From IMG/VR virus record IMGVR_UViG_3300047554_000160, positions 1-54,230 of that record: a stretch of 54,230 nt of DNA; one strand, given 5' to 3'. Shown here piece after piece: positions 11-47,915 of the stretch (the stretch's first letter is position 1; the number at the start of each line of letters is the position of its first letter). The position numbers and the translations under genes are program-made. This stretch comes from a virus (taxonomy: Duplodnaviria > Caudoviricetes). The notes below the pieces were generated by a model. It saw only the letters and a program-made list of their open reading frames with translations, searched no databases and was not told the DNA's origin.

Positions 11-1024
11 TTAGCAGTTTATGATGTTAAAAATTTTCGCTGTTGAACCGCTTCGCGGCTCCGCCGCTGGGTGGACAGGAACGGGCCCGACCGGAATCAT
101 GCGTTTAGCAGTTACTATGTCCGTAGTGCAGTGGCAGTTGTGCTGATGACAAATAACAGGAGTAGTGGGCCATTTTAATATGGGATCGCTCAGTCGTCCT
201 ATGTAACCGCCTTCTGCACAGTTACCCCTGCGATAACTGCCGTCATACTGCACAAACAGAGTGTCCAGGCCTATGTCACATTGCCAGCCTGGAAAATAGT
301 GTCGATCTTCAACTATCAGGCGAGTTGCCCAGGGTCCCGACACTCGTTCAGTAGAGCCATCCATATATACTGCTTGGGCACTGTATTCTAGCTTGGCATT
401 CTTGCCTTCGGGGTGCTTTTTAGGTCTGCTGTTCTCCAGCCATTCCAGCTGTTCGGCACTGTAGGTAACCGGTTTGCTGCCCCCACCCCAATTGACTATC
501 TTTACCGGTTCTATACCCAGATTTGTTTTTTCTAGTATTTTAAAGACTGCCAAACATTGGCTCCATCTATCAGGGTCCATCATGATACGAGCCGTAGTAT
601 GTGGTATTCTGCACTGTGTTTCCACAGCACGACCTACCCAAGACAGATCGTCAAATGCGGCATGATAGCTGAGACAGATATAGTCCGGGCGGCAGTCGTC
701 CCAATAGTGTCCTGCACGAACTCCGTTAGAAGTTAGCCCTACAGTATGTCCTCGATCTAGAAATAGATTGATTAGATCTTTAAGCCAGGGACTGACTGTA
801 GGTTCTCCGCCTGCAATACTTAACTGTATATTGGGATGTTGTTCCATTAGTTCTAGAGCAAATCGTTCGGCGTGCCGCCATTCATAATGATGATTCTTAC
901 CATTATGCAACATTGTAGGGCAATATCTACAATGATTGGTACAGATGTTGTTGATACACCAAGTCAGTTGAAATACCCGAGGTTTGTGGTTGCGTATTTC
1001 TATAAGATCAGCTTTGGTATTCAT
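11..1024 (-). CDS. Radical SAM protein with C-terminal SPASM/twitch-like Cys cluster
   Basis: CxxxCxxC (CTNHCRYC), GGEP motif, TSNG, C-terminal CDIG..DG..GNC..IG..C..C.C. Confidence 0.9.
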   Translation of the reverse strand: MNTKADLIEIRNHKPRVFQLTWCINNICTNHCRYCPTMLHNGKNHHYEWRHAERFALELMEQHPNIQLSIAGGEPTVSPWLKDLINLFLDRGHTVGLTSNGVRAGHYWDDCRPDYICLSYHAAFDDLSWVGRAVETQCRIPHTTARIMMDPDRWSQCLAVFKILEKTNLGIEPVKIVNWGGGSKPVTYSAEQLEWLENSRPKKHPEGKNAKLEYSAQAVYMDGSTERVSGPWATRLIVEDRHYFPGWQCDIGLDTLFVQYDGSYRRGNCAEGGYIGRLSDPILKWPTTPVICHQHNCHCTTDIVTAKRMIPVGPVPVHPAAEPRSGSTAKIFNIINC

Positions 1025-1097: not shown

Positions 1098-6236
<5,139 letters not shown>

Positions 6237-6758
6237 TTAAATGAGTGAGAGCAGGATCTGCTCTTGCTCATACAGTACCTTTAGCTGATCTAGCGCCTCT
6301 CCATAGTACTTGGTTACACGAACTGCAAGGCCGCCTGCCTCTTTCCAGCCTTGACAATTATCAAGTCGGTCATCAACTAAGATATCACCAGGTTTGGTAT
6401 GATTGCGTTTGTCCTGACTATATGGACCAAAATGCACAGGAATATCTGGATAGCGCTCATGTGCCCACATTACTTTATCATAGTAGGCCCAATGGATATC
6501 ATTATAGTGCGGAACCGCAGTTAGAAATATCAATTCCCAACCTAGTTCATCACGAAACTTTCGAGCAAGTTCGACCAGCTCGTCGGCACGTTTCATTTTT
6601 GGTAGGTTACGGAATATTCGTTGATGGCTACGAATTTTTGCCCAGTCACTAGGCGGATAAGGTTTTTCTGGGTACTCAGAAACATATCCGACTAATTCGG
6701 CTGCACCTGCTTCCCAATCGGCTACAACGCCGTCCATGTCTAAGTAAATTGTTCTCAT
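6237..6758 (-). CDS. 5'(3')-deoxyribonucleotidase, HAD superfamily (NT5C-like)
   Basis: N-terminal YLDMDGVVAD motif I, FLTA motif II, K..ILVDD motif IV. Confidence 0.85.
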   Translation of the reverse strand: MRTIYLDMDGVVADWEAGAAELVGYVSEYPEKPYPPSDWAKIRSHQRIFRNLPKMKRADELVELARKFRDELGWELIFLTAVPHYNDIHWAYYDKVMWAHERYPDIPVHFGPYSQDKRNHTKPGDILVDDRLDNCQGWKEAGGLAVRVTKYYGEALDQLKVLYEQEQILLSLI

Positions 6759-7503: not shown

Positions 7504-8061
7504 ATGAGTAATAGTAGTTTAGCAGGACATATTTTAGTATCGCAACCTAGGAGCGAGGATCCTTATTTTTCTAAAAGTGTTATATTAGTAGCCAAGCACG
7601 GCCCACAGGGTGCATGGGGTATTATGATTAATAAATCAACACCTAACTTAACATTAGGCACAATAATGCAGGCAGTAGGGATTGATTCAAATAAACAGGA
7701 TAGAGTTTATGTTGGAGGGCCTGTAGATACACATAGAGTATTCATTGTTCATAGTATGGACTGGCAAAGTCACAATACTATACAGGTTACTAGAGATATA
7801 GGAATAACGAACGAGATGCAGGTGTTAGCCGCAATTAGCACCGGAGAAGGTCCTGCACTATATAGGACCTGCGTAGGAAGTGCAGGATGGGGACCGGGAC
7901 AATTAGACGGTGAATATAGAGGAGAGCCACCCTGGAAAACGGCAAATAGATGGCTAGATGCTCCTGCTACCATAGAATCTGTGTTTAGCCTTAGTCAGGA
8001 TGATCAATGGCAAAAGTGCATTGAATTAGTTGCACAACACAAAGTTTCTTCCTGGCTTTAA
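7504..8061 (+). CDS. YqgE/AlgH (DUF179) family protein
   Basis: L.G..LV..P...DPYF.KSVIL...H...GA.G..INK; VYVGGPV; G.AGWGPGQL..E; W. Confidence 0.88.
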   Translation: MSNSSLAGHILVSQPRSEDPYFSKSVILVAKHGPQGAWGIMINKSTPNLTLGTIMQAVGIDSNKQDRVYVGGPVDTHRVFIVHSMDWQSHNTIQVTRDIGITNEMQVLAAISTGEGPALYRTCVGSAGWGPGQLDGEYRGEPPWKTANRWLDAPATIESVFSLSQDDQWQKCIELVAQHKVSSWL

Positions 8062-9503
8062 TCCTTTTCCGGACTAAAACTACTTAAAATATCCCTAACA
8101 CTTCTCATTGTAGGTTGTGCCTGTTTAGGTTTAGGCGCAGACAAACCTTTAGTCATATCAATTTCACCAGTTTCTGGATCTACATTAGTAGCAGTTACAA
8201 CACTGGTCTTTTTCAATCCGTCGATTAGCGCATTACTGGCCGCACTACGCTGTTGGCTAAAACTATTTTCTTCTTCGTCTCCAAGATCTTTGATTCTAAG
8301 ACTGTCGATATCAAATTCTAAGTCAAGTTTTTGTCCAACACCCGATGACGAACGTGTCTTCATAAACTGAATTTGATAACGTCCTCGCTCACGCATAGCA
8401 CGACTGGTAAAGATACCAATAACGTTGTCAGCAGTTTGAATCTTACTTAAACCGCCCGAAATGTGACTGTGATCGAATTCAACTTCTTCAACGGCAGCAC
8501 GGTTTAACTGAGCGGCAGTTACTACTACACATTGAGTTTCCATAGCTAGGTTACGCAACTCTTCCGAAACATATTTGTCTTTAACAAACAGGTCACTAGG
8601 GCTAACTTTAACACTTAATGGCATCATTAAGTCTAGGTAATCAACTAATAGAACATCTGGCTTCTTACCTGTTTTAACTTGATATTCTTTTAGGTAAGAT
8701 CTCAAATCATTACAGTTTTTGCCGGATGGTAGATACTTGATCTGCATTCCGCCTGCACGTTTGCCTGTAAGTTTAACCTTCATTTCAACATCATCAAGAT
8801 TCTTAAAGATGTCTTTTGATGCCACACCGGTTAGCATACTATCCACACGCATACCTACTAACTCTTCACTAAGTTCGAAGGTAAAGTAAATGACATTTAA
8901 GCCTGCGAGAGCAAAATTAACACCAAGATTAGCCAAGAACAAGCTCTTACCACCGCCCGAGCCAGCACACCAAATATTGAGTTCGCCTCGCTTGAAACCT
9001 CCATAGAGTTTCTTATCGATACTAGGGTATCCAGTAGATATTTGACCATTATTATCTTTCAATTTCATTAAACGAGCACGGGGATCTGCCCAGTAGTCTG
9101 TGCCCATGTCTTTGTTTAGACTAATCTGAATAGCGTCCTTGATTAGTTTTTCAACTGGACTGTATTCTCCCTTTTCCAGCATGTCTGCTGACTTTAGAAT
9201 AGCACGTTCCAATCCTTTGTGCCTACTAAAGTTTTCAAACTCATCCATTAACCAATCATAGTTTTCTTTGGGTAATGTTACAGATTGAAAGTCAGTTTGA
9301 CATGAAGCATTAACAATACTAACTTCAGGCATGACCTTGTAATCATCTACATACTTTGTGATGAAAGAGGATGCATCTTGGTATCTCTTGTCAAAGTTCT
9401 CTGGGTCAAAAATATTTTGACATCGAACAAAAGTCTCTGCATCGGATAGGAACATCTCTAAATAGAGTTTTTGCATGTCTGCGTTATAGTTAGGTTTCGT
9501 CAT
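8058..9503 (-). CDS. Replicative DNA helicase, DnaB/T4 gp41-like
   Basis: Walker A AGSGGGKS, FTFELSE, Walker B VDYLDL, AAQLNR, KTRSS; next to primase. Confidence 0.92.
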   Translation of the reverse strand: MTKPNYNADMQKLYLEMFLSDAETFVRCQNIFDPENFDKRYQDASSFITKYVDDYKVMPEVSIVNASCQTDFQSVTLPKENYDWLMDEFENFSRHKGLERAILKSADMLEKGEYSPVEKLIKDAIQISLNKDMGTDYWADPRARLMKLKDNNGQISTGYPSIDKKLYGGFKRGELNIWCAGSGGGKSLFLANLGVNFALAGLNVIYFTFELSEELVGMRVDSMLTGVASKDIFKNLDDVEMKVKLTGKRAGGMQIKYLPSGKNCNDLRSYLKEYQVKTGKKPDVLLVDYLDLMMPLSVKVSPSDLFVKDKYVSEELRNLAMETQCVVVTAAQLNRAAVEEVEFDHSHISGGLSKIQTADNVIGIFTSRAMRERGRYQIQFMKTRSSSGVGQKLDLEFDIDSLRIKDLGDEEENSFSQQRSAASNALIDGLKKTSVVTATNVDPETGEIDMTKGLSAPKPKQAQPTMRSVRDILSSFSPEKD

Positions 9504-10488
9504 CTTCTAGTGCTTCTAATTTCTTTTGATATAGTTTTATTTTTATCTCGTTAGTCTCTACATAGTGCAGAATACTGAATAAAGTATAAAGCCTGCCGTA
9601 TTTTTTTACAGCATCCGCAGAGTCCTTTATGTCGTCTTCCCACTGCGGTATCGACACTGCCCAGCCTTGTTCGAGTGCATATTGCACTAACTTAGCGCCA
9701 GGCTTATCTCTGTCAGGCAGTACAATAACTTTCTTGCCAAGGCGATTAATCCTAGCAATCTGAGTAGTGTTGGGCTCGTTAGTCATAATTGCCACGCCAT
9801 CTATAGCAATAGCATCAAATTGGCCTTCAACTACAATTACATATTCTCTAGAGTCAGTCTGGCGATCAACATTGAATACATATCCGCTTTGACTGTCTGT
9901 GAGGTATTTGGGCTTACCAGGTTTGATTTTACGCCCAGTATAGCCCACTACCACTCCGTCCTGATAGAAAGGGATCATCACTCGATCGCGGTACCCGTTT
10001 TCACTAGACCACATCCAAGGATACCAGTCAAGTTCCATTCCTCTACCAGTAAGATAATCAACTACTGCTATTACTTCATCATTTGGCTCAGCCTCCAGCC
10101 ATTCTAATATTGACCTACAGTCTCCCGGCAAAGTTCTGGGCTCTTGATGAAAGTTAATAGTGGGTTTAGCCACTGGTTGATCCTCTTTGGATCGCAATGC
10201 CTCAAGATTCAGTTTATTAATTTCATCACTTGGCATTCCCATCCAGTTGAATAAGCTCTTGGTATTCTTACTTAACAACCTTCCGGGTGTCCAGCCTGCT
10301 TTGAATCCACAGTTAAAACAATGATATTGGAATCCTTCGTTGCTGAACAGCACGCCACCACGCTTTCTTGTATCTTGATGATCTCCATTGTGATGGCAAC
10401 AGACTGCGTTAAAACTTATCCAGCCGCTAGGAGTTGTCTTCCTTTTAGGAGGCAAGAAAGTTTGTACGGAAGCCTGTATGAGATTCAT
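9490..10488 (-). CDS. DNA primase, T4 gp61-like (Zn finger plus Toprim)
   Basis: CC..H / HCFNCG zinc ribbon; IPF...G.VVGY.GR; KYL; VVEGQFDA; PDRDKPG; KDSAD. Confidence 0.92.
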   Translation of the reverse strand: MNLIQASVQTFLPPKRKTTPSGWISFNAVCCHHNGDHQDTRKRGGVLFSNEGFQYHCFNCGFKAGWTPGRLLSKNTKSLFNWMGMPSDEINKLNLEALRSKEDQPVAKPTINFHQEPRTLPGDCRSILEWLEAEPNDEVIAVVDYLTGRGMELDWYPWMWSSENGYRDRVMIPFYQDGVVVGYTGRKIKPGKPKYLTDSQSGYVFNVDRQTDSREYVIVVEGQFDAIAIDGVAIMTNEPNTTQIARINRLGKKVIVLPDRDKPGAKLVQYALEQGWAVSIPQWEDDIKDSADAVKKYGRLYTLFSILHYVETNEIKIKLYQKKLEALEDDET

Positions 10489-10494
10489 ACATAT

Positions 10495-10523
10495 AGTTTA
10501 GCTTCGCACAATTAACTTGTCAA
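10495..10523 (-). promoter_or_regulatory. Sigma70-type early promoter TTGACA-N17-TAAACT, 6 nt before the primase ATG
   Basis: Perfect -35 at 10518-10523, 17-bp spacer, -10 at 10495-10500. Confidence 0.7.
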
Positions 10524-11616
10524 TTTTTCCGTTAGGATAATAAGCCGTTCCGGGAGTAGGATTGCCCGGCATTTCAGGACTGTAGAAGTTTAATAGTCCG
10601 GGAAGATCGGAATTGTCTGGGTACCATTTAACACGAACATCACTCCAAGTTCCTTCGGCGTTGGCATAATCAACGCCGGTGAAGTTGGTATAAGTTTTGG
10701 TTTCTAAAGTTGCATAGTTACCGAAGTTCGAAGGAGCATTATCCAATGTTGCCTGCACTTCTACGGTTCCTGTATAGTTGGTAAAGTACATGGCAACGGT
10801 AGTCAATTGACTGGCTTCTGGATTAGCACGTAGGTTGCCGGAGTAAAATTCGTATCGGTTAGGTTCTACATCTCTATTGGCAAAATACTTGAAAGAAGTT
10901 GTTTCAATACCTGCACTTAATACTGGAACAAGATCGCCGGCTAGTCTTGCAGTGCCGTCGATACTGTAGTAGGTATTTGAATATGCAGGTAATCTTTCTC
11001 CGTCGCTATCTGCTAGTGTAACTGAAAACTTATAGTAACTGTTATGCAGTTCTCTTGTGTCGTTATCTGATAAAGATAGCAATGCAATACCTCTGGTTGC
11101 AGTTGTGACACCATCGTCTATAACCTCAAGTGTTTTCTGGACAACCATTCTATTTTGCTCAGCGTCGAACATTGAAAATACAAAATTATGATTGAAAGTA
11201 ATTGAGGTGCCTGAATTGATGTCTGTAGTAATAGGAGATAAAAACTGGTCTAAGTCAGCATCGTATAGGGGATCTAAGTTGCTAAGAGTTAAGGTATTCG
11301 AATCAATTGCAGAAATATAAGTACCGGCAGAAACATTATCGCTATTAACTGACATGCCTAGCTGAACATTGGATGCATCGGATACTACAAGAACATTGGA
11401 TGCAGATGTTGCAGTTCCTACAGTTTCTGTGGATGCTAGTACCCTGACACGTTTTTGATCAGAGTTCATAAACTGAATTTGCACTTTGTTCTTCATGCCT
11501 CTCTGAAGTTTAAGTTCGCGTTGGTACATAACGTTATTTGTCCTTTTCTCGTAGTCGTCCAAATCTAATTGTACAGTTAGTAAATTGGAGTATAAATAGA
11601 CTGGTAATTTCTGCAT
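10498..11616 (-). CDS. Hypothetical, probably virion structural beta-sandwich protein (start revised to MQKLPVY)
   Basis: TAAATA 5 nt upstream of the ATG at 11616; S/T/V-rich beta-strand composition. Confidence 0.55.
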   Translation of the reverse strand: MQKLPVYLYSNLLTVQLDLDDYEKRTNNVMYQRELKLQRGMKNKVQIQFMNSDQKRVRVLASTETVGTATSASNVLVVSDASNVQLGMSVNSDNVSAGTYISAIDSNTLTLSNLDPLYDADLDQFLSPITTDINSGTSITFNHNFVFSMFDAEQNRMVVQKTLEVIDDGVTTATRGIALLSLSDNDTRELHNSYYKFSVTLADSDGERLPAYSNTYYSIDGTARLAGDLVPVLSAGIETTSFKYFANRDVEPNRYEFYSGNLRANPEASQLTTVAMYFTNYTGTVEVQATLDNAPSNFGNYATLETKTYTNFTGVDYANAEGTWSDVRVKWYPDNSDLPGLLNFYSPEMPGNPTPGTAYYPNGKIDKLIVRS

Positions 11617-11627
11617 AGATATATTTA
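11591..11627. promoter_or_regulatory. Opposed late promoters: perfect TATAAATA (+, 11591-11598) and TAAATA (-, 11622-11627)
   Basis: Exact T4 late consensus upstream of the 11633 ORF; the minus copy is 5 nt from the ATG at 11616. Confidence 0.65.
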
Positions 11628-11632
11628 TTGTA

Positions 11633-12016
11633 ATGACCAGCAAGGACGAGTTTCAGAAAAAATTTCCGTTTATAACGTGTATTAAAACGTCAGAAAACGA
11701 GTATTTAGGCATCATTGTGAATCACGATGACAATGTCACCAGCATATACAACTATGCAGACATACGGACCGAAACACAAAAGCAACTATTCTTAGAAATG
11801 GGCGAAGTGTGGTGGTGGGAAAGTAATAGGAAAATTCCTATTAACATTTTCCTAAAATCGGAGATGATCGACTTCCGTCCGTTTATTAAGACATTTAACA
11901 GCAAGGACGTAGAAGTACTATTTGGACCTATAGTAAATCTAGGCGAAATTGCAGAAAAACGAGTTAAACGTAAAAGTATTCAGTTAGTTAGAAGTGTTAA
12001 GCGAAAGGGTAGCTAA
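11633..12016 (+). CDS. Hypothetical protein (127 aa, basic C-terminus)
   Basis: Clean ORF with an upstream TATAAATA; overlaps the 3' end of the mini-DnaE by 20 nt. Confidence 0.65.
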   Translation: MTSKDEFQKKFPFITCIKTSENEYLGIIVNHDDNVTSIYNYADIRTETQKQLFLEMGEVWWWESNRKIPINIFLKSEMIDFRPFIKTFNSKDVEVLFGPIVNLGEIAEKRVKRKSIQLVRSVKRKGS

Positions 12017-12575
12017 CGCTTTCACATAACAGGTTAAGTTGAACTACAATTACATGAGCATAAGCAATAGCATGAGCCTTCTTAAAGAAATAAGCATCAT
12101 CCGTTTTAGTCCATATCTCTTGCTTGATACCTTGGAAGCCTTCTTTTTCACATACTGGGATGAGATGCTTTTTGCCGGGTCTGAGCAGCGCAAGGAACAT
12201 GGCTAAGTCCTCAATTGATCTAGGCTTTAGTTTAGCAATCAGTTGATGATATCCATTAATATGAAACATTTGATCACAGACTGCCTGGTCCTCTAACAAG
12301 TCCCATAACGGTTCAACACCTAATAGATGTTTAAGGTGTTCCTCATTCTTAACACCATTGTAGGCATTGACATTTAAAAAGTCAATTTTAAAGTAACCCC
12401 TATCCTCTGCTTCTTTATAGTTGATGTTTGCAAGCCCGGTTAAGGGATTCTGCGGAATAACATGACAATATACACCTGTGTTATGCTTCTTCCCATCTTC
12501 AAGACTGGCGGGAACATGATCGATTATATCAAGAATAGAAGACCTGTTTAAAAAGTCAATATCGATATCAGGCAA
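11997..12575 (-). CDS. Miniature DNA polymerase III alpha (DnaE, family C) catalytic-core protein
   Basis: PDIDIDF, KHNTGVY, GYFKIDFL, LKPRSIEDLAMFLALLRPG and YFFKKAHAIAYA match DnaE palm/finger motifs in order; TTG start with AAGGAG RBS. Confidence 0.8.
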   Translation of the reverse strand: MPDIDIDFLNRSSILDIIDHVPASLEDGKKHNTGVYCHVIPQNPLTGLANINYKEAEDRGYFKIDFLNVNAYNGVKNEEHLKHLLGVEPLWDLLEDQAVCDQMFHINGYHQLIAKLKPRSIEDLAMFLALLRPGKKHLIPVCEKEGFQGIKQEIWTKTDDAYFFKKAHAIAYAHVIVVQLNLLCESVSYPFA

Positions 12576-13263
12576 TTCCTGTCTCCTTACAAACTTCTTT
12601 TACAAATGCAACATCTGCTGGTTGATCTTTAAATTTTTTTGACCAAAATGCAAAGTCTAGAATTTGATTAACTAGATCTAATTGTTCATCATTGAACTTT
12701 CGCATGAGCTCAACTCCGCTGGCGCTGTTTAATACTAACCACGGACTAACTTTGCCATCACGAATATGATGCACTGCTCTATTGAGATTTACATAACTGA
12801 AGTAATGTGCAAAGTTTGCATTTTGCTCTTCGCCCCACTCCATCATATATTGCAGACTGCGTTCAACTGCACTTTCCACTGGTTCGATTTTAATTAAGTC
12901 AGACAGATATTGTTCATATAGAGAATCTCTGCACCAATGATCGAGTTTAACTCCGCTTTTGATTACAAAGTCAATAAATCGTTCTGGATACAGCGGATCT
13001 ACGTTGTTGATAAAGCTGCCAAATTTTACAAAGGCATTATAGTATGCGCTCTTACAAAAATCAGTATATGACTTTTGCTTCTTGGCGTTTTGTGTCAGCT
13101 GATAAAATCTGTTATAGGCGAAGAAACCCATCTGAACACGTTTCTCGTCTTTTTGCAAGACTCGACGTTTTTGTTCGCACATGTGCGCAACAAGCGTTTT
13201 TTCTTTCATAAACATCTTGCCGCAATGAACACACTTAAATGGCTGATCCACTAAATCAATCAT
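12568..13263 (-). CDS. Hypothetical protein with N-terminal C2H2/C2HC-type zinc finger
   Basis: FKCVHCGKMFMKEKTLVAHMC; helical remainder; overlaps the mini-DnaE start. Confidence 0.65.
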   Translation of the reverse strand: MIDLVDQPFKCVHCGKMFMKEKTLVAHMCEQKRRVLQKDEKRVQMGFFAYNRFYQLTQNAKKQKSYTDFCKSAYYNAFVKFGSFINNVDPLYPERFIDFVIKSGVKLDHWCRDSLYEQYLSDLIKIEPVESAVERSLQYMMEWGEEQNANFAHYFSYVNLNRAVHHIRDGKVSPWLVLNSASGVELMRKFNDEQLDLVNQILDFAFWSKKFKDQPADVAFVKEVCKETGIA

Positions 13264-13486
13264 CTTTTTCAACGCCGTATTTTTTAACCATTCGATACAA
13301 GGGATCTTGTTCGATAATTAAAAGTCTTTCAGGAAATCTTATTGCTTGTTTGCTGTCGTCAAGATAAATTTTGCCATCTGCAATTTTAGTAACAGTACAG
13401 ATATCTAATTTAGGACTCTTGCCCCACATAACTGCTCTTGCAACTTTACAGCCTTCATTAAAGGCAAAACCTTTCATGTCTTTCAT
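13256..13486 (-). CDS. Small hypothetical protein (SH3/KOW-like beta pattern)
   Basis: 76-aa ORF overlapping both neighbours; D.KG..F..GCKVA...TVTKI.DGKIY. Confidence 0.55.
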   Translation of the reverse strand: MKDMKGFAFNEGCKVARAVMWGKSPKLDICTVTKIADGKIYLDDSKQAIRFPERLLIIEQDPLYRMVKKYGVEKDD

Positions 13487-13944
13487 TCGTAGTCTTTCCG
13501 TTGCTTTTTATCAAAACCCATCTTGTCAAAGAGTTCTTCCTTGTCCTCTTTGGTCATCATTGATGCTAGAATCTTAATTTCTTCTAGCTTCATTGCAGGA
13601 TAAATTTCTTCCAACAGTTTTTCTATCTTGTTGGCTTTTTCTTTTGAACTAGCTTTTAGATATGTATATTTGACAGGCATTCCAACGCCGCAACTAGCAA
13701 ATAGTTGCCACAGCAACGGCTTATGTCCTTTGCTTAGTGTCCAGTGATTTATATTGACAAGATCATTAACTCGTTCTAGTACGAATTCGTAAGTTTCTGT
13801 ATCAACCTGTGGATTACTTACATATCTCATCAGGATGTAAGGACTGAACGCTTTCTTTTCTTCGTCAGTTAGATTTTTGTAAAAGTCGTGATTACGATCA
13901 TTTACACCTTTGAGTTCTCTGCCAATGTCAAGTTTTGCTGCCAT
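13483..13944 (-). CDS. Clamp-loader small subunit, T4 gp62-like (probable)
   Basis: AFSPYILMRYVS...VN...H..L.W; KYTYLK; lies in replication cluster; TAATG coupling gives start 13944. Confidence 0.6.
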   Translation of the reverse strand: MAAKLDIGRELKGVNDRNHDFYKNLTDEEKKAFSPYILMRYVSNPQVDTETYEFVLERVNDLVNINHWTLSKGHKPLLWQLFASCGVGMPVKYTYLKASSKEKANKIEKLLEEIYPAMKLEEIKILASMMTKEDKEELFDKMGFDKKQRKDYE

Positions 13945-14228
13945 TATACTGGATGCCACATTATGGGCTTTTCTTTCTGTTTAAGGTAATACAATACTTT
14001 AACACGATCTAGGGCTTCTTGCAACTCTTTGTCAGCCAATGCAGCCTGCCGAATATCATGCCAAAGTTGGGCATCTTTTGGACTGCTCATGTAATTTCTG
14101 TGATCCAATGGATCTCTGTGATAATTGTAGCCCACTACAGTCCTTTCAGTGCTGCCTTCCTCACGAGCATAGACAGTGTCACCTACTCGCTCGTAGATTA
14201 GTTTAACTCCGGGAGTAAGAGAACCCAT
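13944..14228 (-). CDS. Hypothetical protein
   Basis: 94-aa ORF with stop/start overlaps on both sides. Confidence 0.6.
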   Translation of the reverse strand: MGSLTPGVKLIYERVGDTVYAREEGSTERTVVGYNYHRDPLDHRNYMSSPKDAQLWHDIRQAALADKELQEALDRVKVLYYLKQKEKPIMWHPV

Positions 14229-14563
14229 TAGTGATTCCGTTTTCCGTCAAAGACACAGTTGAATACTAGGTGCATTTCGCCATCATTAATTACACGATGA
14301 AAAGCACCGTCTGGAATTAGAATGATGTCTCCCGAATTAACCCTAAATTTTTCTTCATCAACAATCATCATGCCAGTACCTTGAACAAAGAAATATACCT
14401 CTTCTTGTCCTGCATGGCTGTGTCCGCGAGTAGCTTGTCCTCTATACAATTTTGTCGAACTAAGAACAAGATTCTTTAAAGTTTTGTTGTCTTTGAGAAG
14501 ATATGTTTCGTTATCTTTAACAACTTCTCCGCCTATATCATGATTATGAAATTTAATTTGCAT
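14228..14563 (-). CDS. Cupin-domain protein
   Basis: GHSHAGQEEVYFFVQGTG and GDIILIPDGAFHRVIN cupin motifs; TGATG coupling gives start 14563. Confidence 0.88.
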   Translation of the reverse strand: MQIKFHNHDIGGEVVKDNETYLLKDNKTLKNLVLSSTKLYRGQATRGHSHAGQEEVYFFVQGTGMMIVDEEKFRVNSGDIILIPDGAFHRVINDGEMHLVFNCVFDGKRNH

Positions 14564-15066
14564 CACCAACACCTCGAATAATCGACAATTTCACTTTGTC
14601 TGCTAACCTCTTTAACAAAGTATGCACATGGAGGTTTAGGCTCATTGTTCAGTGGAGTACATAGAAGCTGGCCTGGCTTCATTTTAGGAAAATACCACTT
14701 AACATCTTGATAGACATCAATGATGTCAATGTCATAGAACTCGGGTCTAAAACTACTCAAAGGATTAAAAATAAAAGTTTTAAATCCTCGATCGTTTAGA
14801 CTAGTTAGTGGAATAATTTCCATTTCAGGACCTTCTGGATCGCCAACAATGGTGCACCAATCTAACGGCATATTAACAGTATATGGTCCTACCTTTAGCA
14901 CTGCCGCAGGTGCTGTAAAACTTTCCAAGAAAATTAATGGAATATGAAAGTAGTCAGGATTTTGATTGTCGCTGTTATCTAAAACTGCAAACCTTAAATC
15001 ATCATCAACTTCCTCTGGTAAGTCGTTTAAGTGATATATTTTATTTTCTAATGTTAAAATTTGCAT
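14563..15066 (-). CDS. Hypothetical all-beta protein (possibly a degenerate Hint-like fold)
   Basis: 167-aa ORF coupled to UvsW by TAATG; the fold suggestion is pattern-based only. Confidence 0.6.
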   Translation of the reverse strand: MQILTLENKIYHLNDLPEEVDDDLRFAVLDNSDNQNPDYFHIPLIFLESFTAPAAVLKVGPYTVNMPLDWCTIVGDPEGPEMEIIPLTSLNDRGFKTFIFNPLSSFRPEFYDIDIIDVYQDVKWYFPKMKPGQLLCTPLNNEPKPPCAYFVKEVSRQSEIVDYSRCW

Positions 15067-16523
15067 TAGTATTTTACCTTTTCAATAGCGAACGGATACT
15101 TCGCTTCCTTATAGAATTTCTTTCGTTCAGTAAGATGTCTCTTTGCATATTTCGTTGCCGCAGTAATATCCCAGATCTGTACGAAGTCTTTGTCGTCTGC
15201 TTTTCTAATGCCTCGCCCAATAGACTGTATAACTCTTGTAAAGCTCTTTCCGGCTTCCACCATAACCAGATTAAAAATACGAGGGATATTAATACCCACA
15301 GCGGCCACACCATAAGTCGCCACAATAATCTTGTTGTCAGCAGTTTTAACTTCATCGTATTCTTCTTTTCTGTCTTTAGTTTTTACTTCACCAGAAATAA
15401 AAACTGCATCTGGTATGTTCTCTACAATTATACGCCCGGTTTCAATTCTGTCAACCAAGACTAGTGTATTTCCGCTTTCTGCAATACCTTTTATCAGTTT
15501 GCTCATCCAGGTAATACGATCTTTGTCAGTGACTAGATATTTTAGTTCGGCTGGATAACTTTCAAACTCTTTCCATTCGGCAGTTTGAATAACATTCACA
15601 TGACATGCGCTCAACACACCTTTTTCTTGAAGTTCGTGTGCGGCAACTTTATGAACAACTTCGCCTAGGCCGGCGCGAATATTCATAAATTCAATGTCTT
15701 CTTTAGGTACTGTTCCAGTTAGTCCCCAACGAATCGAACAGTTGGCAAGATTTTGTGTCAATAGTTTTTTCAACACATCTGCCTTGGCCATATGAACTTC
15801 ATCAACGATAACTGTTTGAACACCGTTGAGAAATTCTGCCAATGTTAGGATGTCATCATCTGTGGTATTTTTGGATTTTTTGTCTAAAATATTCAAACTT
15901 TGCCAAGTGCAGATAGTATGTGTTTTATCTAAGTCTTTTCGATCTCCGTAATACACACCTACATCAAGCTGACAGTTGATAAAATCTTCCTCTGTTTGCT
16001 CAACAAGACTTTTGTTAGGAACAATGGTTATTGTTCGACCATATTTTTCACAAATTTTACTCAAAGTTGCGGTGGTAATGGTCTTGCCAAAACCAGTAGC
16101 AATCTCTTGAATACACTGAGGATTCTCTAAAAACTTATTGACTACTTCGACTTGGTCATCGCGTAGTCGAATAGGTTCTCCTGCAAAACGATGTCCTTCA
16201 GGCCAACACAGCTCACCCCAAAAATCTTCGGAAATTTTCTCAAATTTTAGCTCAACTGGGATACGATGATCTTCAAGTACTGGATCATATCCTTGACGGA
16301 TGAGCTCTTCAATAACCTCAGGGAGGATGCTCATGTAAGTGGTACCGCCTAGGCCAAAGAAACTGGTACAGCCATCCCACCTACCTAATTTGTATGCTGG
16401 TAGGTAACGAGCTTTTTGGTCAAAAAACTTGAATTTCTTGACCAGATCCTTTCGAGTGTCTAGGTCAAGGTTTTCAATTTTAACATTGACCTCGTCTTTG
16501 ATTACAATTTTACAATAGGCCAA
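15066..16523 (-). CDS. uvsW: UvsW-like SF2 DNA helicase
   Basis: LRDDQ Q-motif, ATGFGKT, VDEVH, GLTGT, VGINIP, QSIGRGIR. Confidence 0.9.
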   Translation of the reverse strand: MAYCKIVIKDEVNVKIENLDLDTRKDLVKKFKFFDQKARYLPAYKLGRWDGCTSFFGLGGTTYMSILPEVIEELIRQGYDPVLEDHRIPVELKFEKISEDFWGELCWPEGHRFAGEPIRLRDDQVEVVNKFLENPQCIQEIATGFGKTITTATLSKICEKYGRTITIVPNKSLVEQTEEDFINCQLDVGVYYGDRKDLDKTHTICTWQSLNILDKKSKNTTDDDILTLAEFLNGVQTVIVDEVHMAKADVLKKLLTQNLANCSIRWGLTGTVPKEDIEFMNIRAGLGEVVHKVAAHELQEKGVLSACHVNVIQTAEWKEFESYPAELKYLVTDKDRITWMSKLIKGIAESGNTLVLVDRIETGRIIVENIPDAVFISGEVKTKDRKEEYDEVKTADNKIIVATYGVAAVGINIPRIFNLVMVEAGKSFTRVIQSIGRGIRKADDKDFVQIWDITAATKYAKRHLTERKKFYKEAKYPFAIEKVKY

Positions 16524-17712
16524 ACTGATATCCTGTTTTATTCTTATCTGTATATCTTATAACATCTGGGCGATTGTCTAAGTAGGTGCTGATGCTGTAA
16601 TGCACCCCTGACAAACTGCCTAAATTCAATATTAGTTTAAAATCTATGCCAGATTTAATCAATGGCTTAGGAATCTTTTGACTAACAAAAACTACCTTGG
16701 TATTTTCGTCCAAGGGGTTGTTTAAATTTTCTTGTTTAATAAATTCATTCAACAAGTTGCCTGTACTGTTAGGCAATCTAAACAACACACTGATGTCTTT
16801 TTCAGGAATTCCTTGCTTTTTTAACCACAAAGCCCAGGCCTTTAGTGAAAAGAATTCATTGTATCCTGGAATAACGATCAAAGCTGGCAAATTATGTTTG
16901 AACAGGGTTGATAGTTGATCAACGGGATTTTCATTCAGGTCGAATTCTAGACTATTTGGTCTCGATTCTTGCAAAAATGAAGTCAAAACAGGCGAAAAAT
17001 TTGCATTTTCCATCAATTTTTCGACATTTTCGTCCCATGTTGAAATTCCGTAGTATTTGGCCAATAGCAGTGTTTCTGCAACATCATTAGATGTCGGCTG
17101 TGGAATGGTATGATGCGTGTTGATGAATGAAAACTTCTCACCGTCATGTACCACCATGGGCAAATGATCTTCAATTTTCTCTAAAATTTCGGAAATTTCG
17201 TCAAAATAGCGGGCAAACTCTTCATCCACTGTAAAGCCGAGATTTACAATGTTATAGGCAATCCAATGGATGTTAGATTCTTCGAGAGCAAACTTCCATA
17301 CCTTGTTATCAGCGTCCCACTCACAAAGCTTCATGTGATGCAGGTCCCTATATTTTCTGATTTTTGACACCAGATCTTCATTATAGGGGAATTTTACCAC
17401 AATTTCCTTGTCTCGGACCGTAATGCTCTTTTCATAGGTCGCCGGTTCGACTATGGGAAATCTAAATTCCGGATTGTCTAGTGCATCATGTGCATCTGCA
17501 CCTAAGTACATGGCCAATTGATTCCTGTATTTTTGACAAAGTCTCAAAACAAGAGCTCGTTGCTTCTCAGTAAATCCTTTTCCAATGGAGGGATTTTGAG
17601 CCAAGCTGGTAACAACCTTCTTATCCATGTCCCAGAGAGAAATTTCTGGGTCGAACATGTATTGTCCAGAGTTCCCAAGCCTGCAAATTAGGTCTTCGAT
17701 GTATAGTTTCAT
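16510..17712 (-). CDS. Hypothetical protein with HARP-like segment
   Basis: VKFPYNEDLVSKIRK...WDADNKVWKF; sits between uvsY and uvsW. Confidence 0.55.
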   Translation of the reverse strand: MKLYIEDLICRLGNSGQYMFDPEISLWDMDKKVVTSLAQNPSIGKGFTEKQRALVLRLCQKYRNQLAMYLGADAHDALDNPEFRFPIVEPATYEKSITVRDKEIVVKFPYNEDLVSKIRKYRDLHHMKLCEWDADNKVWKFALEESNIHWIAYNIVNLGFTVDEEFARYFDEISEILEKIEDHLPMVVHDGEKFSFINTHHTIPQPTSNDVAETLLLAKYYGISTWDENVEKLMENANFSPVLTSFLQESRPNSLEFDLNENPVDQLSTLFKHNLPALIVIPGYNEFFSLKAWALWLKKQGIPEKDISVLFRLPNSTGNLLNEFIKQENLNNPLDENTKVVFVSQKIPKPLIKSGIDFKLILNLGSLSGVHYSISTYLDNRPDVIRYTDKNKTGYQFGLL

Positions 17713-40441: not shown

Positions 40442-40840
40442 TTATTCCTCAACTGCATCTGAGTAATAGCTAGTGGTTTTTAAAAAATCGTATGCTTGCT
40501 CTACAACAGTCTTTGACGAGCCCATATCAATTGTCATCCACAGGTTAGTTTCGGTCTTAGTTTCAGCTCGAAGATCTGCAGGGATGTCAGTTGGATAAAC
40601 TCCGATTTGTGCAATAGGTAATTTACCAGCATCTCTTGCCGCTTTGTTATAAAATACCTGAACGCATACTCTACCATAATATCCTTTTTTCCACTGCCAG
40701 TCTGGGCAATTTGCAGGTCTAACTCCGCCCGGATCTGGTATATCTGTGGGTATCTTATGTGTTATAACATCGCTTACAACATGATACGCTTCGTCGGCGT
40801 CAATGCCATTGGCAAGTTCGTATCGTTTAATTAGAGCCAT
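40442..40840 (-). CDS. Hypothetical fibre-associated protein
   Basis: MAL...Y....G.....AYH; QAY.FLKT...Y.DA; overlaps the fibre stop codon. Confidence 0.65.
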
Positions 40841-46800: not shown

Positions 46801-47915
46801 TATGGTCCAGCGCCGCTTGTGCCGCCAACATAATCGACGTTAACCGTAATTGCTAGTCCTACAATGGCAGTGATTGTACCTTCCATGTAGTTTGTAGGAA
46901 TAGCAGGATAAACTACACGCACACGCATACCAGTACTGAATGCGTTTGTTTTATTAACTGTCCAAGTTTTACTGCCAGTAGTATTGGTATTAGATGTAGA
47001 ACTTGTTACATCATAGCCTAATCCAGTAGCACCTGTTCCACCAACACTACCTGCAGAACCTGCCGCACCAGTAGCACCTATTTCACCAGTAGCACCTGTA
47101 GCACCTTGAGGTCCTGTAGCACCTGTAGTTCCTGTTAAACCAGTAGCACCTGTAGCTCCAGTAGATCCTTGATTACCTACACCACCCGACGGTCCTGTTG
47201 CGCCTTGAGGGCCTGTAGCACCAGTTGCACCTCGAGCACCAGTTGCACCTACACCACCAGTTGCACCTACTTGTCCTGTGGCACCTGTAGCACCTACTTG
47301 TCCTGTTGCACCTGTAGCACCCGGATTACCTTGACCCCCAGCACCACCTGTTGCACCAACTGGGCCAGTAGCACCAGTTGCACCTGGATAACCTGTAGCA
47401 CCCTGCGGACCTGTAGCACCTGTAGCACCTCGCAAACCTGTAGCACCTGTTGATCCGTCTTGTCCTGTGGCACCAGTGGCACCAGTGCTTCCAGAAGGTC
47501 CTGTTGCACCAGTACCTCCGCCACTGCCACCTGCACCAGTTGCACCTTGTGGTCCTGTAGCACCAGTGGAACCTACAGGGCCGGTTGCACCTGTAGCACC
47601 TCGAGGACCTGTTGCGCCTGTACTGCCTGTAGCACCAATTGGGCCTGTGGCGCCAGTTGCGCCTTGAGGGCCTGTAGCACCAGTTGCACCAGTAGCTCCA
47701 TTTTCTCCATCGGGACCAGTTGCACCTGTAGCACCAGCGGCTCCACTAGCTCCTGTACCAGGTGCGATAAATGCCAAACTACCTTGTGTATCGGCTAGAC
47801 CTAATAACCAACCGCTAGTAGTTGCACTCTCGGGTAAGGTTAGAGTAACTGTTCCTGTTGTAGGAGATTTTAAGGTTATATTACCTTGCTGACTGGTATC
47901 TAAATTAATTGCCAT
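40827..47915 (-). CDS. Long tail fibre/adhesin: N-terminal collagen-like stalk, modular Gly/Asn/Trp/Tyr-rich domains, C-terminal S74 chaperone
   Basis: About 450 aa of GAT triplets; repeated [13 protein letters not shown] linkers; [11 protein letters not shown]...LIAQEV...V.YDKI...LIQAIK.L. Confidence 0.87.
42102..44501 (-). repeat. Six dispersed ~54-nt repeats encoding W[16 protein letters not shown](F/Y)
   Basis: Copies near 42102, 42444, 42816, 43164, 43866 and 44448; the 42816 and 43866 copies match at 34 of 35 nt. Confidence 0.85.

What the first reader, a model, noticed from the sequence alone, without database searches (positions are those of the whole stretch)
11997..12575. A 192-aa DnaE (family C polymerase) reduced to its catalytic motifs, inside a T4-type replisome cluster
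Seen: five DnaE motifs in the correct order (PDIDIDF at residues 2-8, KHNTGVY, GYFKIDFL with Asp65, LKPRSIEDLAMFLALLRPG, YFFKKAHAIAYA). The TTG start has an AAGGAG RBS and an in-frame TAA 9 codons upstream, so no PHP domain can be fused in frame. Known: bacterial DnaE is about 1100 aa, with roughly 150 residues (thumb) between the PDxDxD aspartates and the third Asp, and roughly 100 residues between RPG and FNKSH. Here those gaps are about 58 and 27 residues. So the protein is internally deleted rather than a piece of a split gene, yet all three catalytic Asp remain. T4-like replisomes (gp41/gp61/gp62/gp32/UvsXYW, all nearby) normally use a family B polymerase. Inference: a minimal family C nucleotidyltransferase with a new role (primer extension, end addition, repair), perhaps completed by neighbouring small proteins in trans.
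Basis: partly seen in the sequence, partly recalled or inferred. Interest (0 to 1): 0.85.

Follow-up and report, generated by a model that had tools for sequence, protein, structure and literature searches.

The report
C-terminal half of split mini-DnaE
This 192-residue gene is a real, conserved, stripped-down relative of the bacterial replicative polymerase DnaE, but it is one half of a two-gene enzyme that was already described in giant phages in 2021, so it is a new member of a known family whose activity has never been assayed.

Summary
ORF 11997-12575 (-) encodes 192 aa with the DnaE motifs in order. It starts at TTG behind AAGGAG, with an in-frame TAA nine codons upstream. A profile of 84 homologues hits only Pol III alpha in the PDB (E 3e-5), in three colinear blocks. 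D3, D5, K63 and D65 are invariant, and dN/dS is 0.035-0.12.

The reading "internally deleted rather than split" is half wrong. It is both. In 4 of 4 complete or near-complete relatives, a second small gene 31-224 kb away encodes the preceding palm segment, which carries the GRGS loop. That gene ends exactly where this protein begins: PF07733 positions 19-95 versus 98-114. One 375-aa fused form exists. The two halves are predicted to dock (score 0.89, best control 0.02).

PHP and HhH domains are absent from those genomes, and each has a family B polymerase. So no ordinary DnaE is rebuilt.

Iyer et al. 2021 (PMC7824862) already describe this split minimal Pol III alpha in group 2.2 jumbo phages. 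The window is a 54-kb fragment that lacks the N half. Verdict: new member of a known kind, biochemistry untested, modest interest.

The parts
11997..12575 (-). C-terminal subunit (192 aa) of the split minimal DNA polymerase III alpha. It carries the catalytic D3, D5 and D65, plus K63, R132-P133-G134, K165 and H168.
   Evidence: ORF; phrog_11778 at E 4.8e-62; profile against the PDB hits only Pol III alpha; invariant D3, D5, K63, D65 and P133 in 84 sequences; AF2 pLDDT 95.2; Foldseek top 7 are Pol III alpha.
12573..12588 (-). Translation start: AAGGAG (12588-12583), a 7-nt spacer, then TTG (12575-12573). The start overlaps the TGA stop of the upstream gene (12570-12568).
   Evidence: Read from the sequence. 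The same start position (M-P-D-x-D-x-D) is used in 74 of 80 related loci, with ATG in 68 and TTG in 6.
12600..12602 (-). In-frame TAA nine codons upstream of the start. It rules out an in-frame N-terminal extension.
   Evidence: Translation of 11997-12650 on the minus strand.
11633..12016 (+). Convergent 127-aa gene (phrog_11637) whose 3' end overlaps the 3' end of the polymerase gene by 20 nt. It is the most constant neighbour; its function is unknown. This is context, and it is not shown to be part of the enzyme.
   Evidence: phrog_11637 at E 3.8e-34. A homologue abuts the 3' end in convergent orientation in 75 of 76 loci with enough flank, and also in Phosso, 121Q and PA5oct. AF2 pLDDT is 70 and there is no fold match.
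12568..13272 (-). Upstream 234-aa protein with an N-terminal C2H2-like zinc finger (phrog_11058). Here its stop overlaps the polymerase start by 8 nt. This is context; its function is unknown.
   Evidence: phrog_11058 at E 7.3e-60 and weak zf-C2H2 hits below cut-off. It lies on the same strand within 3 kb upstream in 75 of 77 loci and is directly adjacent in only 20 of 77.
8058..10488 (-). Primase (9490-10488) and DnaB/gp41-like helicase (8058-9503), downstream on the same strand: the primosome genes to which the C subunit is linked.
   Evidence: phrog_47 primase at E 1.9e-37 and phrog_19 helicase at E 3.3e-75. A primase lies within 4 kb downstream in 60 of 60 loci with enough flank.

Best explanation
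ORF 11997-12575 (-) is the C-terminal subunit of the two-gene 'minimal DNA polymerase III alpha' of group 2.2 (121Q/Rak2/PA5oct/Atu_ph07-like) jumbo phages.

What it contributes: the strands of the Pol-beta-like palm that carry the three metal-binding aspartates (D3, D5, D65), K63, and a cut-down finger segment (RPG, KxxH). What it lacks: the thumb, most of the fingers, and the PHP, beta-clamp-binding, HhH and OB parts of DnaE.

The other half of the active site is a 169-177-aa protein ending in ...GVGRGSS...EFL(R/K/N). That protein is the nucleotide-triphosphate-binding part of the palm. It is made from a distant gene that lies outside this 54-kb fragment.

The two proteins most likely assemble without a covalent join, since there is no room for intein pieces. 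Together they would form a nucleotidyltransferase of about 360 aa that works beside the phage's family B replicase.

Shown: homology, the exact split junction, conservation of the catalytic residues, purifying selection, co-occurrence of the two halves in relatives, and one fused form. Inferred: that this phage also has the N half, that the halves bind, that the enzyme is active, and what it does. My best guess is short-patch DNA synthesis at the primosome or in repair, given its constant linkage to primase and helicase.
For: Homology:
- phrog_11778 'DNA polymerase' at E 4.8e-62 and phrog_405 (a 1190-position DnaE-type profile) at E 3.1e-6.
- The A1 profile against the PDB gives 9 Pol III alpha sequences at E 3.3e-5 to 3.5e-4 and nothing else below 0.3.
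- The Foldseek top 7 are all Pol III alpha, with prob 0.89-1.0.

Split junction:
- PF07733 positions 16-97 lie at the C-terminus of a separate small ORF in Phosso, 121Q and PA5oct.
- In the 94%-complete contig G002, positions 19-95 are in a 169-aa ORF and 98-114 are in the C piece.
- The N pieces end ...EFLN...EFLKW or ...EFLK. The C piece begins MPDIDIDF. An ordinary DnaE reads ...ERFLNPDRISMPDFDIDF....

Fused form: P0314 (375 aa) matches the query's residues 2-178 at its positions 190-372. It matches PF07733 12-121 in one stretch across the junction.

Co-occurrence:
- 4 of 4 fuller genomes have both halves and a family B polymerase.
- Genus counts in the phage collection match for Escherichia (34/34), Pseudomonas (11/11), Erwinia (8/8), Salmonella (8/8), Xanthomonas (4/4) and Yersinia (4/4).

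Constraint:
- D3, D5, K63, D65 and P133 are invariant in 84 sequences at 30-86% identity.
- 78 of 80 loci are intact at 188-198 aa.
- dN/dS is 0.035-0.117 in 14 unsaturated pairs.

Docking: complex prediction gave 0.89 as the median of 3 runs, against a best control of 0.02. That mark was reached by 58 of 80 solved complexes and 2 of 110 mismatched pairs. The runs agree in at least 95% of contacts and the partner's pLDDT is 86. The interface joins C residues 2-9 to N residues 130-143, which is the GRGS loop.

Literature: Iyer et al. 2021 describe exactly this.
Against: - The N half is not in the window. Its presence in this phage is inferred from relatives whose C piece is 42-64% identical.
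- The complex used a partner from another phage (G002). It can pass from memory of solved Pol III alpha chains, where these contacts lie within one chain. The calibration counts hold only roughly with my own alignments.
- Alone, the protein is below the Pfam cut-offs. Foldseek E-values are 3e-3 with TMq 0.42. The N-piece profile A3 found no PDB chain at E <= 0.01.
- Only 1 fused form is among the 150 listed representatives (407 had E <= 0.001). I could not place it on a contig.
- The 'longer' word-indexed search found none.
- No thumb, clamp-binding or HhH/OB module is detectable, so templated DNA synthesis is not assured.
- My searches found no biochemical paper.
Confidence: 0.85

Rival explanations
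1. One reading: a stand-alone minimal family C nucleotidyltransferase. The 192-aa protein would be catalytically self-sufficient, or completed only by its immediate neighbours (the 234-aa zinc-finger protein, the 127-aa protein, or primase).
For: - All three aspartates are present, along with K63, RPG and KxxH.
- The AF2 model of the protein alone is confident, at pLDDT 95.2.
- The neighbours are very constant: the 127-aa gene in 75 of 76 loci, the 234-aa gene within 3 kb in 75 of 77, and primase in 60 of 60.
- The start overlaps the stop of the 234-aa gene.
Against: - The GRGS triphosphate-binding segment of the DnaE palm (PF07733 positions up to about 97) is missing from this protein. It is supplied by a separate conserved gene in 4 of 4 fuller relatives.
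- A fused N+C form exists.
- The predicted N-C interface is large, at 155-159 contacts, and it covers the catalytic strand 2-9.
- The 234-aa gene is directly adjacent in only 20 of 77 loci.
Confidence: 0.06
2. A two-piece Pol-beta-fold nucleotidyltransferase that is not a templated DNA polymerase. It could be a terminal transferase or tailing enzyme, or a maker of a nucleotide signal or modified nucleotide. On this view the DnaE ancestry is only history.
For: - The thumb, most of the fingers, and the HhH, OB and clamp-binding modules that hold primer-template in DnaE are absent.
- The Pol-beta superfamily contains many non-polymerase transferases; this point is from established knowledge and was not tested here.
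- A full family B replicase is present in the relatives, so a second replicase is not obviously needed.
Against: - The retained finger segment (RPG, KxxH) is nearly invariant. Iyer et al. call it the template-binding subdomain.
- Both halves sit in replication clusters. The C half is with primase and helicase in 60 of 60 loci. The N half lies near the clamp loader in 121Q.
- There is no direct evidence for any alternative product.
Confidence: 0.07
3. A non-catalytic remnant kept for a structural or regulatory role, for example as a decoy for host Pol III partners, or a decaying pseudogene.
For: It is very small, has no Pfam hit above cut-off, and uses a TTG start.
Against: - The catalytic aspartates and K63 are invariant in 84 diverse sequences.
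- dN/dS is 0.035-0.117, and length is constant at 188-198 aa in 78 of 80 loci.
- At least 7979 clusters at 90% identity have E <= 0.001.
- The regions of DnaE that bind the clamp, tau and epsilon are the ones that are missing. That these regions bind those partners is recalled textbook knowledge.
Confidence: 0.02

Closest known systems
Split minimal DNA polymerase III alpha of group 2.2 jumbo phages (Iyer, Anantharaman, Krishnan, Burroughs and Aravind 2021, Viruses 13:63, PMC7824862). The C-terminal 'Mg2+- and DNA-template-binding' subunit corresponds to PHROG phrog_11778, for example 121Q gp16, PA5oct gp264 and Phosso protein 437.
   Same: - Full-length match to the family profile.
- 42-48% identity to the isolate-phage members over 95-97% of the length.
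- The same gene order: 158-aa, 234-aa zinc finger, C piece, convergent 120-130-aa gene, structural gene, primase, helicase.
- The same invariant residues.
   Different: It comes from an uncultivated phage known only as a 54-kb fragment, and is at most 48% identical to any isolate. It uses a TTG start, as 6 of 74 related loci do. The N-terminal partner and the family B polymerase are not on the fragment.
Bacterial replicative polymerase DnaE / Pol III alpha (family C), for example the Thermus aquaticus structures 2hpi, 3e0d and 4iqj and the E. coli structures 2hnh and 5fku.
   Same: The Pol-beta-like palm with the PDxDxDF and KxDFL aspartates, the RPG motif and the F(N/K)K(S/A)H motif appear in the same order. 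These are the only PDB sequence and fold matches.
   Different: - About 1100-1220 aa against 192 aa, or about 360 aa with the partner.
- No PHP domain.
- About 95-105 residues (the thumb) are missing between the aspartates, and about 80-90 are missing from the fingers.
- About 355-360 C-terminal residues are missing (clamp-binding, HhH and OB; the domain names are recalled).
- It is split at ...FL(N) | (M)PDxDxDF.
- It is not the main replicase, because relatives carry a family B enzyme.
Cyanobacterial split-intein DnaE (DnaE-n / DnaE-c joined by protein trans-splicing). This comparison is recalled from the literature and was not retrieved here.
   Same: A family C polymerase is encoded by two distant genes.
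   Different: There are no intein fragments here. The N piece stops at the palm's EFL(R/K/N), and the C piece starts directly with MPDIDIDF. Assembly must therefore be non-covalent. The split site and the domain content also differ.
Full-length phage DnaE of group 3.2 jumbo phages (Bacillus phage G type), as described in PMC7824862, section 3.4.1.
   Same: A phage-encoded relative of Pol III alpha.
   Different: Those enzymes keep the PHP domain and the bacterial architecture, and they act as the sole replicase. This one is minimal, split, and accompanies a family B polymerase.

Membership tests
Split minimal Pol III alpha, C-terminal subunit (Iyer et al. 2021; phrog_11778) | Full-length similarity to the roughly 190-200-aa phage family | tested here: met
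   phrog_11778 at E 4.8e-62, residues 3-186 against profile 8-194 of 197. In the phage collection, 91 of 96 records cover at least 80% of the query.
Split minimal Pol III alpha, C-terminal subunit (Iyer et al. 2021; phrog_11778) | Metal-binding aspartates of the Pol III alpha palm retained | tested here: met
   D3, D5 and D65 are invariant in 84 sequences. They align to Taq PDIDTDF (from position 460) and to the KMDFL block (602-707).
Split minimal Pol III alpha, C-terminal subunit (Iyer et al. 2021; phrog_11778) | A separate N-terminal (NTP-binding) subunit gene elsewhere in the same genome | not testable with these tools
   It is not in the 54-kb record, which is about 15% complete. It is present in 4 of 4 fuller relatives: Phosso, 121Q, PA5oct and G002.
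Split minimal Pol III alpha, C-terminal subunit (Iyer et al. 2021; phrog_11778) | Host genome is a T4-paradigm (group 2.2) jumbo phage with a family B polymerase | tested here: inconclusive
   The window has gp41-like helicase, primase, UvsW, UvsY, UvsX, a gp32-like SSB, terminase, tail sheath and tail tube. It has no DNA_pol_B, but the record is a fragment. A family B polymerase is found in 4 of 4 fuller relatives.
Bacterial DnaE / Pol III alpha (family C replicative polymerase) | PHP domain at the N-terminus | tested here: not met
   The in-frame TAA nine codons upstream of the start excludes it. PF02811 is found in 0 of 4 relatives' whole genomes.
Bacterial DnaE / Pol III alpha (family C replicative polymerase) | Complete palm-thumb-fingers core (Pfam DNA_pol3_alpha and DNA_pol3_finger above the curated cut-offs) | tested here: not met
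   PF07733 gives no hit in the window. PF17657 scores 20.1 bits against a cut-off of 22 and covers only 30 residues. The D1-to-D3 spacing is 62 against 157 and 168; RPG to KSH is 33 against 112 and 120.
Bacterial DnaE / Pol III alpha (family C replicative polymerase) | C-terminal HhH, clamp-binding and OB region | tested here: not met
   Only 27 residues follow the KxxH motif, against 388 and 382. PF14579 is found in 0 of 4 relatives' genomes.
Bacterial DnaE / Pol III alpha (family C replicative polymerase) | Catalytic aspartate triad in a Pol-beta-like palm | tested here: met
   In the AF2 model the strands at 4-8 and 64-68 carry the aspartates. The Foldseek top hits are Pol III alpha.
Split-intein DnaE | Intein N- and C-fragments flanking the split | tested here: not met
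   The C piece starts with M-P-D-I-D-I-D-F. The N pieces end at EFL(R/K/N/KW). There are no extra residues on either side.

The most novel reading that the evidence does not exclude
The two-subunit mini Pol III is an active, primosome-associated DNA polymerase. That is a Pol-alpha-like division of labour in a phage replisome that combines family B and family C enzymes. The always-adjacent 127-aa protein and the nearby 234-aa zinc-finger protein would serve as accessory subunits in place of the lost thumb and clamp-binding parts. Such an enzyme would also be the smallest working family C polymerase and a model for the ancestral form.
Probability: 0.2. Interest if true: 0.8.

Novelty: new member of a known kind. 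Interest (0 to 1): 0.3.

Why it matters
The family is a natural minimal form of the bacterial replicative polymerase: the catalytic core is cut to about 360 residues and divided between two genes. If it is active, it would show the smallest set of parts that a family C polymerase needs. It would also show that some phage replisomes use family B and family C enzymes side by side.

This has been pointed out in print (Iyer et al. 2021), so the window adds no new concept.
- The family is very abundant in metagenomes (at least 7979 clusters).
- It is under strong purifying selection.
- It is locked to the primase-helicase genes and to a convergent 127-aa gene.
- It has at least one fused relative.

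The open question is biochemical, and it can be tested directly with two small proteins.

Tried and rejected
- Looked for the N half in the window. The PF07733 search and a tblastn with three N pieces found nothing better than E 1.2. It is absent from this fragment.
- Looked for the rest of DnaE in fuller relatives. PHP was found in 0 of 4 and HHH_6 in 0 of 4. DNA_pol3_finger matched only the C piece itself, in 3 of 4 and below cut-off. The idea that an ordinary DnaE is reassembled from pieces is rejected.
- Pseudogene reading: rejected on length, motif conservation and dN/dS.
- Intein trans-splicing: rejected, because there are no spare residues at the junction.
- A paralogous roughly 235-aa protein upstream of each half: PA5oct gp197 and Phosso 134, which lie upstream of the N piece, resemble each other (E 5e-13). 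They do not resemble the 234-aa zinc-finger protein by BLASTP at E <= 1e-3. I dropped the idea.
- The 127-aa neighbour: AF2 gave pLDDT 70 (the five models ranged from 47.7 to 70.0), Foldseek against the PDB gave nothing below E 0.14, and the Atlas gave no usable hit. Its fold is undetermined.
- The 234-aa neighbour: only weak zf-C2H2 hits below cut-off, and the Atlas returned only viral hypothetical clusters.
- The N-piece profile A3 against the PDB gave no hit at E <= 0.01. The alignment is shallow (79-99% identity). Pfam PF07733 does hit the N piece at 45.8 bits, above the 23.9 cut-off.
- Fused forms: the 'longer' search found none among 561 candidates, which is weak evidence. P0314 has no relative in viral contigs. 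The two metagenome loci returned (L101, L102) are ordinary DnaEs of 933 and 1093 aa. I used them only as yardsticks.
- The window's 400-aa ORF at 16510-17712 sits where 121Q has a DnaQ-like exonuclease, but it shows no similarity to it (E 0.24).
- Megablast of 9000-16000 against the phage collection gave no match.
- Literature: searches found no paper on the biochemistry of this enzyme. Only CC-licensed PMC papers and bioRxiv were searched. Supplements were closed, so Iyer et al.'s supplementary lists of family members were not seen.
- Papers seen: for PMC7824862, passages and the whole of section 3.4.1; for PMC5259590, passages; for all others, the search listing only.
Full report
**1. The observation**

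The ORF lies on the minus strand at 11997-12575 and encodes 192 residues. Its start is TTG at 12575-12573, seven bases behind AAGGAG at 12588-12583. An in-frame TAA at 12602-12600 is the ninth codon upstream, so nothing can be fused in frame at the N-terminus.

On its own the protein only grazes Pfam: DNA_pol3_finger scores 20.1 bits against a cut-off of 22, over residues 107-136. Against the PDB it is not significant (E 1.7).

It does match PHROG phrog_11778 'DNA polymerase' over its full length at E 4.8e-62. It also matches the DnaE-type phrog_405 at E 3.1e-6.

A profile of 84 homologues (A1, 30-86% identical to the query) hits nine PDB sequences below E 0.001. All are Pol III alpha, and the next hit is at E 0.32. 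The match falls in three colinear blocks: Taq 460-521, 602-707 and 809-824.

The AF2 model is confident (pLDDT 95.2, pTM 0.86). Its seven best Foldseek matches in the PDB are all Pol III alpha, with prob 0.89-1.0. Their E-values are only 3e-3 to 3e-2, and TMq is about 0.4.

| Spacing | This protein | L102 | L101 |
|---|---|---|---|
| First to third aspartate | 62 | 157 | 168 |
| RPG to K(S)H | 33 | 112 | 120 |
| Tail after KSH | 27 | 388 | 382 |

**2. The surroundings and the source**

The window is the whole record: an IMG/VR fragment that CheckV rates about 15% complete.

On the same strand, downstream of the gene, lie a structural-protein gene, a primase and a DnaB/gp41-like helicase. Upstream lie a UvsW-like helicase, UvsY, UvsX and a gp32-like SSB. 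Farther off are terminase, tail sheath, tail tube and giant fibre genes.

No phage record matches at the DNA level. At the protein level, 96 phage records hold a homologue at 42-48% identity. All 40 listed rows are phages with records of about 284-490 kb, except one unannotated 94-kb record. They include the 121Q/PBECO4 group, PA5oct, Atu_ph07, Phosso, XaC1 and a Vibrio phage.

**3. It is half of a split gene**

I searched the complete genomes of Phosso, 121Q and PA5oct with Pfam DNA_pol3_alpha (PF07733). In each there is one hit above cut-off, and it is not in the homologue of our gene. It lies at the very C-terminus of another small ORF of 169-177 aa and covers profile positions 16-97. These ORFs end ...WGVGRGSSVASY...EFLN...EFLKW or ...EFLK.

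In G002, an IMG/VR contig of 345 kb rated 94% complete, the C piece is 64% identical to ours. There, PF07733 positions 19-95 fall in a 169-aa ORF and positions 98-114 fall in the C piece.

An ordinary DnaE reads ...GRGS...ERFLNPDRISMPDFDIDF... at this point. The cut therefore lies between the nucleotide-binding half of the palm and the strand that carries the first two aspartates.

The two genes lie about 31 kb apart in 121Q, 44 kb in PA5oct, 175 kb in G002 and 224 kb in Phosso (coordinates).

There is no room for intein fragments on either side of the cut.

One representative protein, P0314 (375 aa), contains both halves in a single chain. Our residues 2-178 match its positions 190-372, and PF07733 positions 12-121 match it in one uninterrupted stretch across the junction.

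The N half is not in our window. In 121Q's gene order it would lie about 28 kb beyond the helicase, and the window has only 8 kb on that side.

**4. No ordinary DnaE is rebuilt**

In the four fuller genomes, PHP is absent (0 of 4) and HHH_6 is absent (0 of 4). DNA_pol3_finger touches only the C piece itself, in 3 of 4 genomes and below cut-off. Each of the four has a family B polymerase above cut-off.

**5. It is maintained by selection**

All but 4 of the 120 listed proteins are 189-204 aa long; the other four are 174-179 aa.

The exhaustive search of 50% representatives gave 407 proteins at E <= 0.001 and 65 at E <= 1e-30.

Of the 80 IMG/VR loci returned (541 confirmed in all):
- 74 have an intact ORF starting xPDxDxD, 68 with ATG and 6 with TTG, at 188-198 aa.
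- 4 more start M(T)DIDIDF and are intact.
- 2 are cut by a contig end.

D3, D5, K63, D65 and P133 are invariant. D7, R132, K165 and H168 are at least 90% conserved.

Nei-Gojobori dN/dS is 0.035-0.117 in the 14 close pairs with a defined ratio (dS 0.06-0.83). Comparisons with the window itself are saturated, with dS at or above 1.35.

The N-half family is also large. It has 1380 proteins at E <= 0.001, and 119 of the 120 listed are 169 aa long.

Genus counts in the phage collection for the two halves coincide for Escherichia, Pseudomonas, Erwinia, Salmonella, Xanthomonas and Yersinia. The extra N-piece hits (Bacillus 14, Cellulophaga 5) have no counterpart among the C-piece hits. They may be full-length phage DnaEs, but I did not check.

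**6. Do the halves fit?**

I ran complex prediction with the window's C piece (alignment A1) and the G002 N piece (alignment A3).
- The scores were 0.89, 0.89 and 0.88, against a best control of 0.02.
- That mark was reached by 58 of 80 solved complexes and 2 of 110 mismatched pairs.
- The runs agree in at least 95% of contacts, and the partner's pLDDT is 86.
- The interface joins C residues 2-9 (the aspartate strand), 37-41, 59-62 and 165-178 to N residues 130-143 (the GRGS loop) and 152-168.

Three cautions apply. The partner comes from another phage. The contacts mimic intra-chain contacts of solved Pol III alpha, so the pass may come from memory. The calibration holds only roughly with my own alignments. 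The model supports binding; it does not show it.

**7. Gene linkage**

I tested 80 related loci.
- A homologue of the 127-aa gene (phrog_11637) abuts the 3' end in convergent orientation in 75 of 76 loci with enough flank.
- A homologue of the 234-aa zinc-finger gene (phrog_11058) lies on the same strand within 3 kb upstream in 75 of 77 loci, but is directly adjacent in only 20 of 77.
- A primase follows within 4 kb in 60 of 60 loci.

The same order holds in Phosso, 121Q and PA5oct.

I could not assign a fold or function to either neighbour.

**8. What is known**

Iyer et al. [quoted passage not shown] They suggest that it may cooperate with the family B enzyme in synthesis of one strand or in repair.

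Buttimer et al. 2017 (PMC5259590; passages) had noted a truncated 172-aa Pol III alpha-like protein in phage CBB. By its length, that is the N half.

RefSeq and GenBank already label some members 'DNA polymerase' or 'DnaE-like DNA polymerase III alpha'.

My four searches found no biochemical study.

**9. Verdict**

The feature is real and under selection. It is correctly recognised as a stripped-down family C catalytic module.

It is a new, diverged member (at most 48% identical to any isolate) of a family that is already in print.

The mechanism I commit to is a non-covalent N+C heterodimer that forms a Pol-beta-like active site and carries out short-range DNA synthesis at the primosome or in repair, beside the family B replicase. 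I give about 0.85 to the identity and the split architecture. I give roughly even odds that the activity is templated DNA polymerisation.

Noticed in passing
window 11633-12016 (+): A 127-aa protein (phrog_11637) with an invariant WWWESNR motif and a basic C-terminal tail (R110, K112-K114). Its gene converges on the mini-DnaE gene and overlaps its 3' end by 20 nt. The arrangement is kept in 75 of 76 related loci and in Phosso, 121Q and PA5oct. The fold is undetermined: AF2 pLDDT is 70 and there is no Foldseek match.
   Followed up: partly
window 12568-13272 (-): A 234-aa protein (phrog_11058) with an N-terminal C2H2-like zinc finger (below Pfam cut-offs). Its stop overlaps the start of the mini-DnaE gene. 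It lies within 3 kb upstream in 75 of 77 related loci, with small genes often inserted in between. Function unknown.
   Followed up: partly
window 16510-17712 (-): A 400-aa ORF between UvsY and the UvsW-like helicase has no PHROG or Pfam hit. In 121Q this position holds a DnaQ-like 'DNA polymerase exonuclease subunit', to which it shows no similarity (E 0.24).
   Followed up: partly
P0314 (375 aa; from the 50% representative library): A single-chain (fused) mini Pol III alpha that joins the N and C halves through a linker of about 9 residues. It keeps a D-x-D motif (ADFDIDT). It is the only fused form among the 150 listed representatives. Its contig and host phage could not be traced.
   Followed up: partly
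L101 4366-5514 and 5581-8382 (+): A metagenome contig with an otherwise ordinary DnaE whose PHP-like N-terminal part (382 aa) and polymerase part (933 aa) are separate adjacent ORFs. This is a different kind of DnaE split, or a frameshift or assembly break.
   Followed up: no
window 7504-8061 (+), 14228-14572 (-), 6237-6758 (-), 11-1024 (-): Auxiliary genes among the replication genes: an AlgH-like DUF179 protein (E 4.9e-34), a small cupin (Cupin_2, E 1.2e-13), a weak match to 5'-deoxynucleotidase NT5C (E 2.7e-4, below cut-off), and a weak radical-SAM-like PHROG match (E 4.6e-7).
   Followed up: no
window 1098-6236 (+), 40827-47915 (-), 47944-54228 (-): Three giant ORFs. The first two (1712 and 2362 aa) have many repeated matches to tail-fibre and collagen-like PHROGs. 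The third (at least 1832 aa, open at the record's end) was not scanned.
   Followed up: no
L017 3326-4033 (PA5oct gp197) and L016 2772-3482 (Phosso protein 134): A protein of about 235 aa lies upstream of the N-half gene in PA5oct and Phosso. The two are homologous to each other (E 5e-13). By BLASTP they are not detectably related to the 234-aa zinc-finger protein upstream of the C half.
   Followed up: partly
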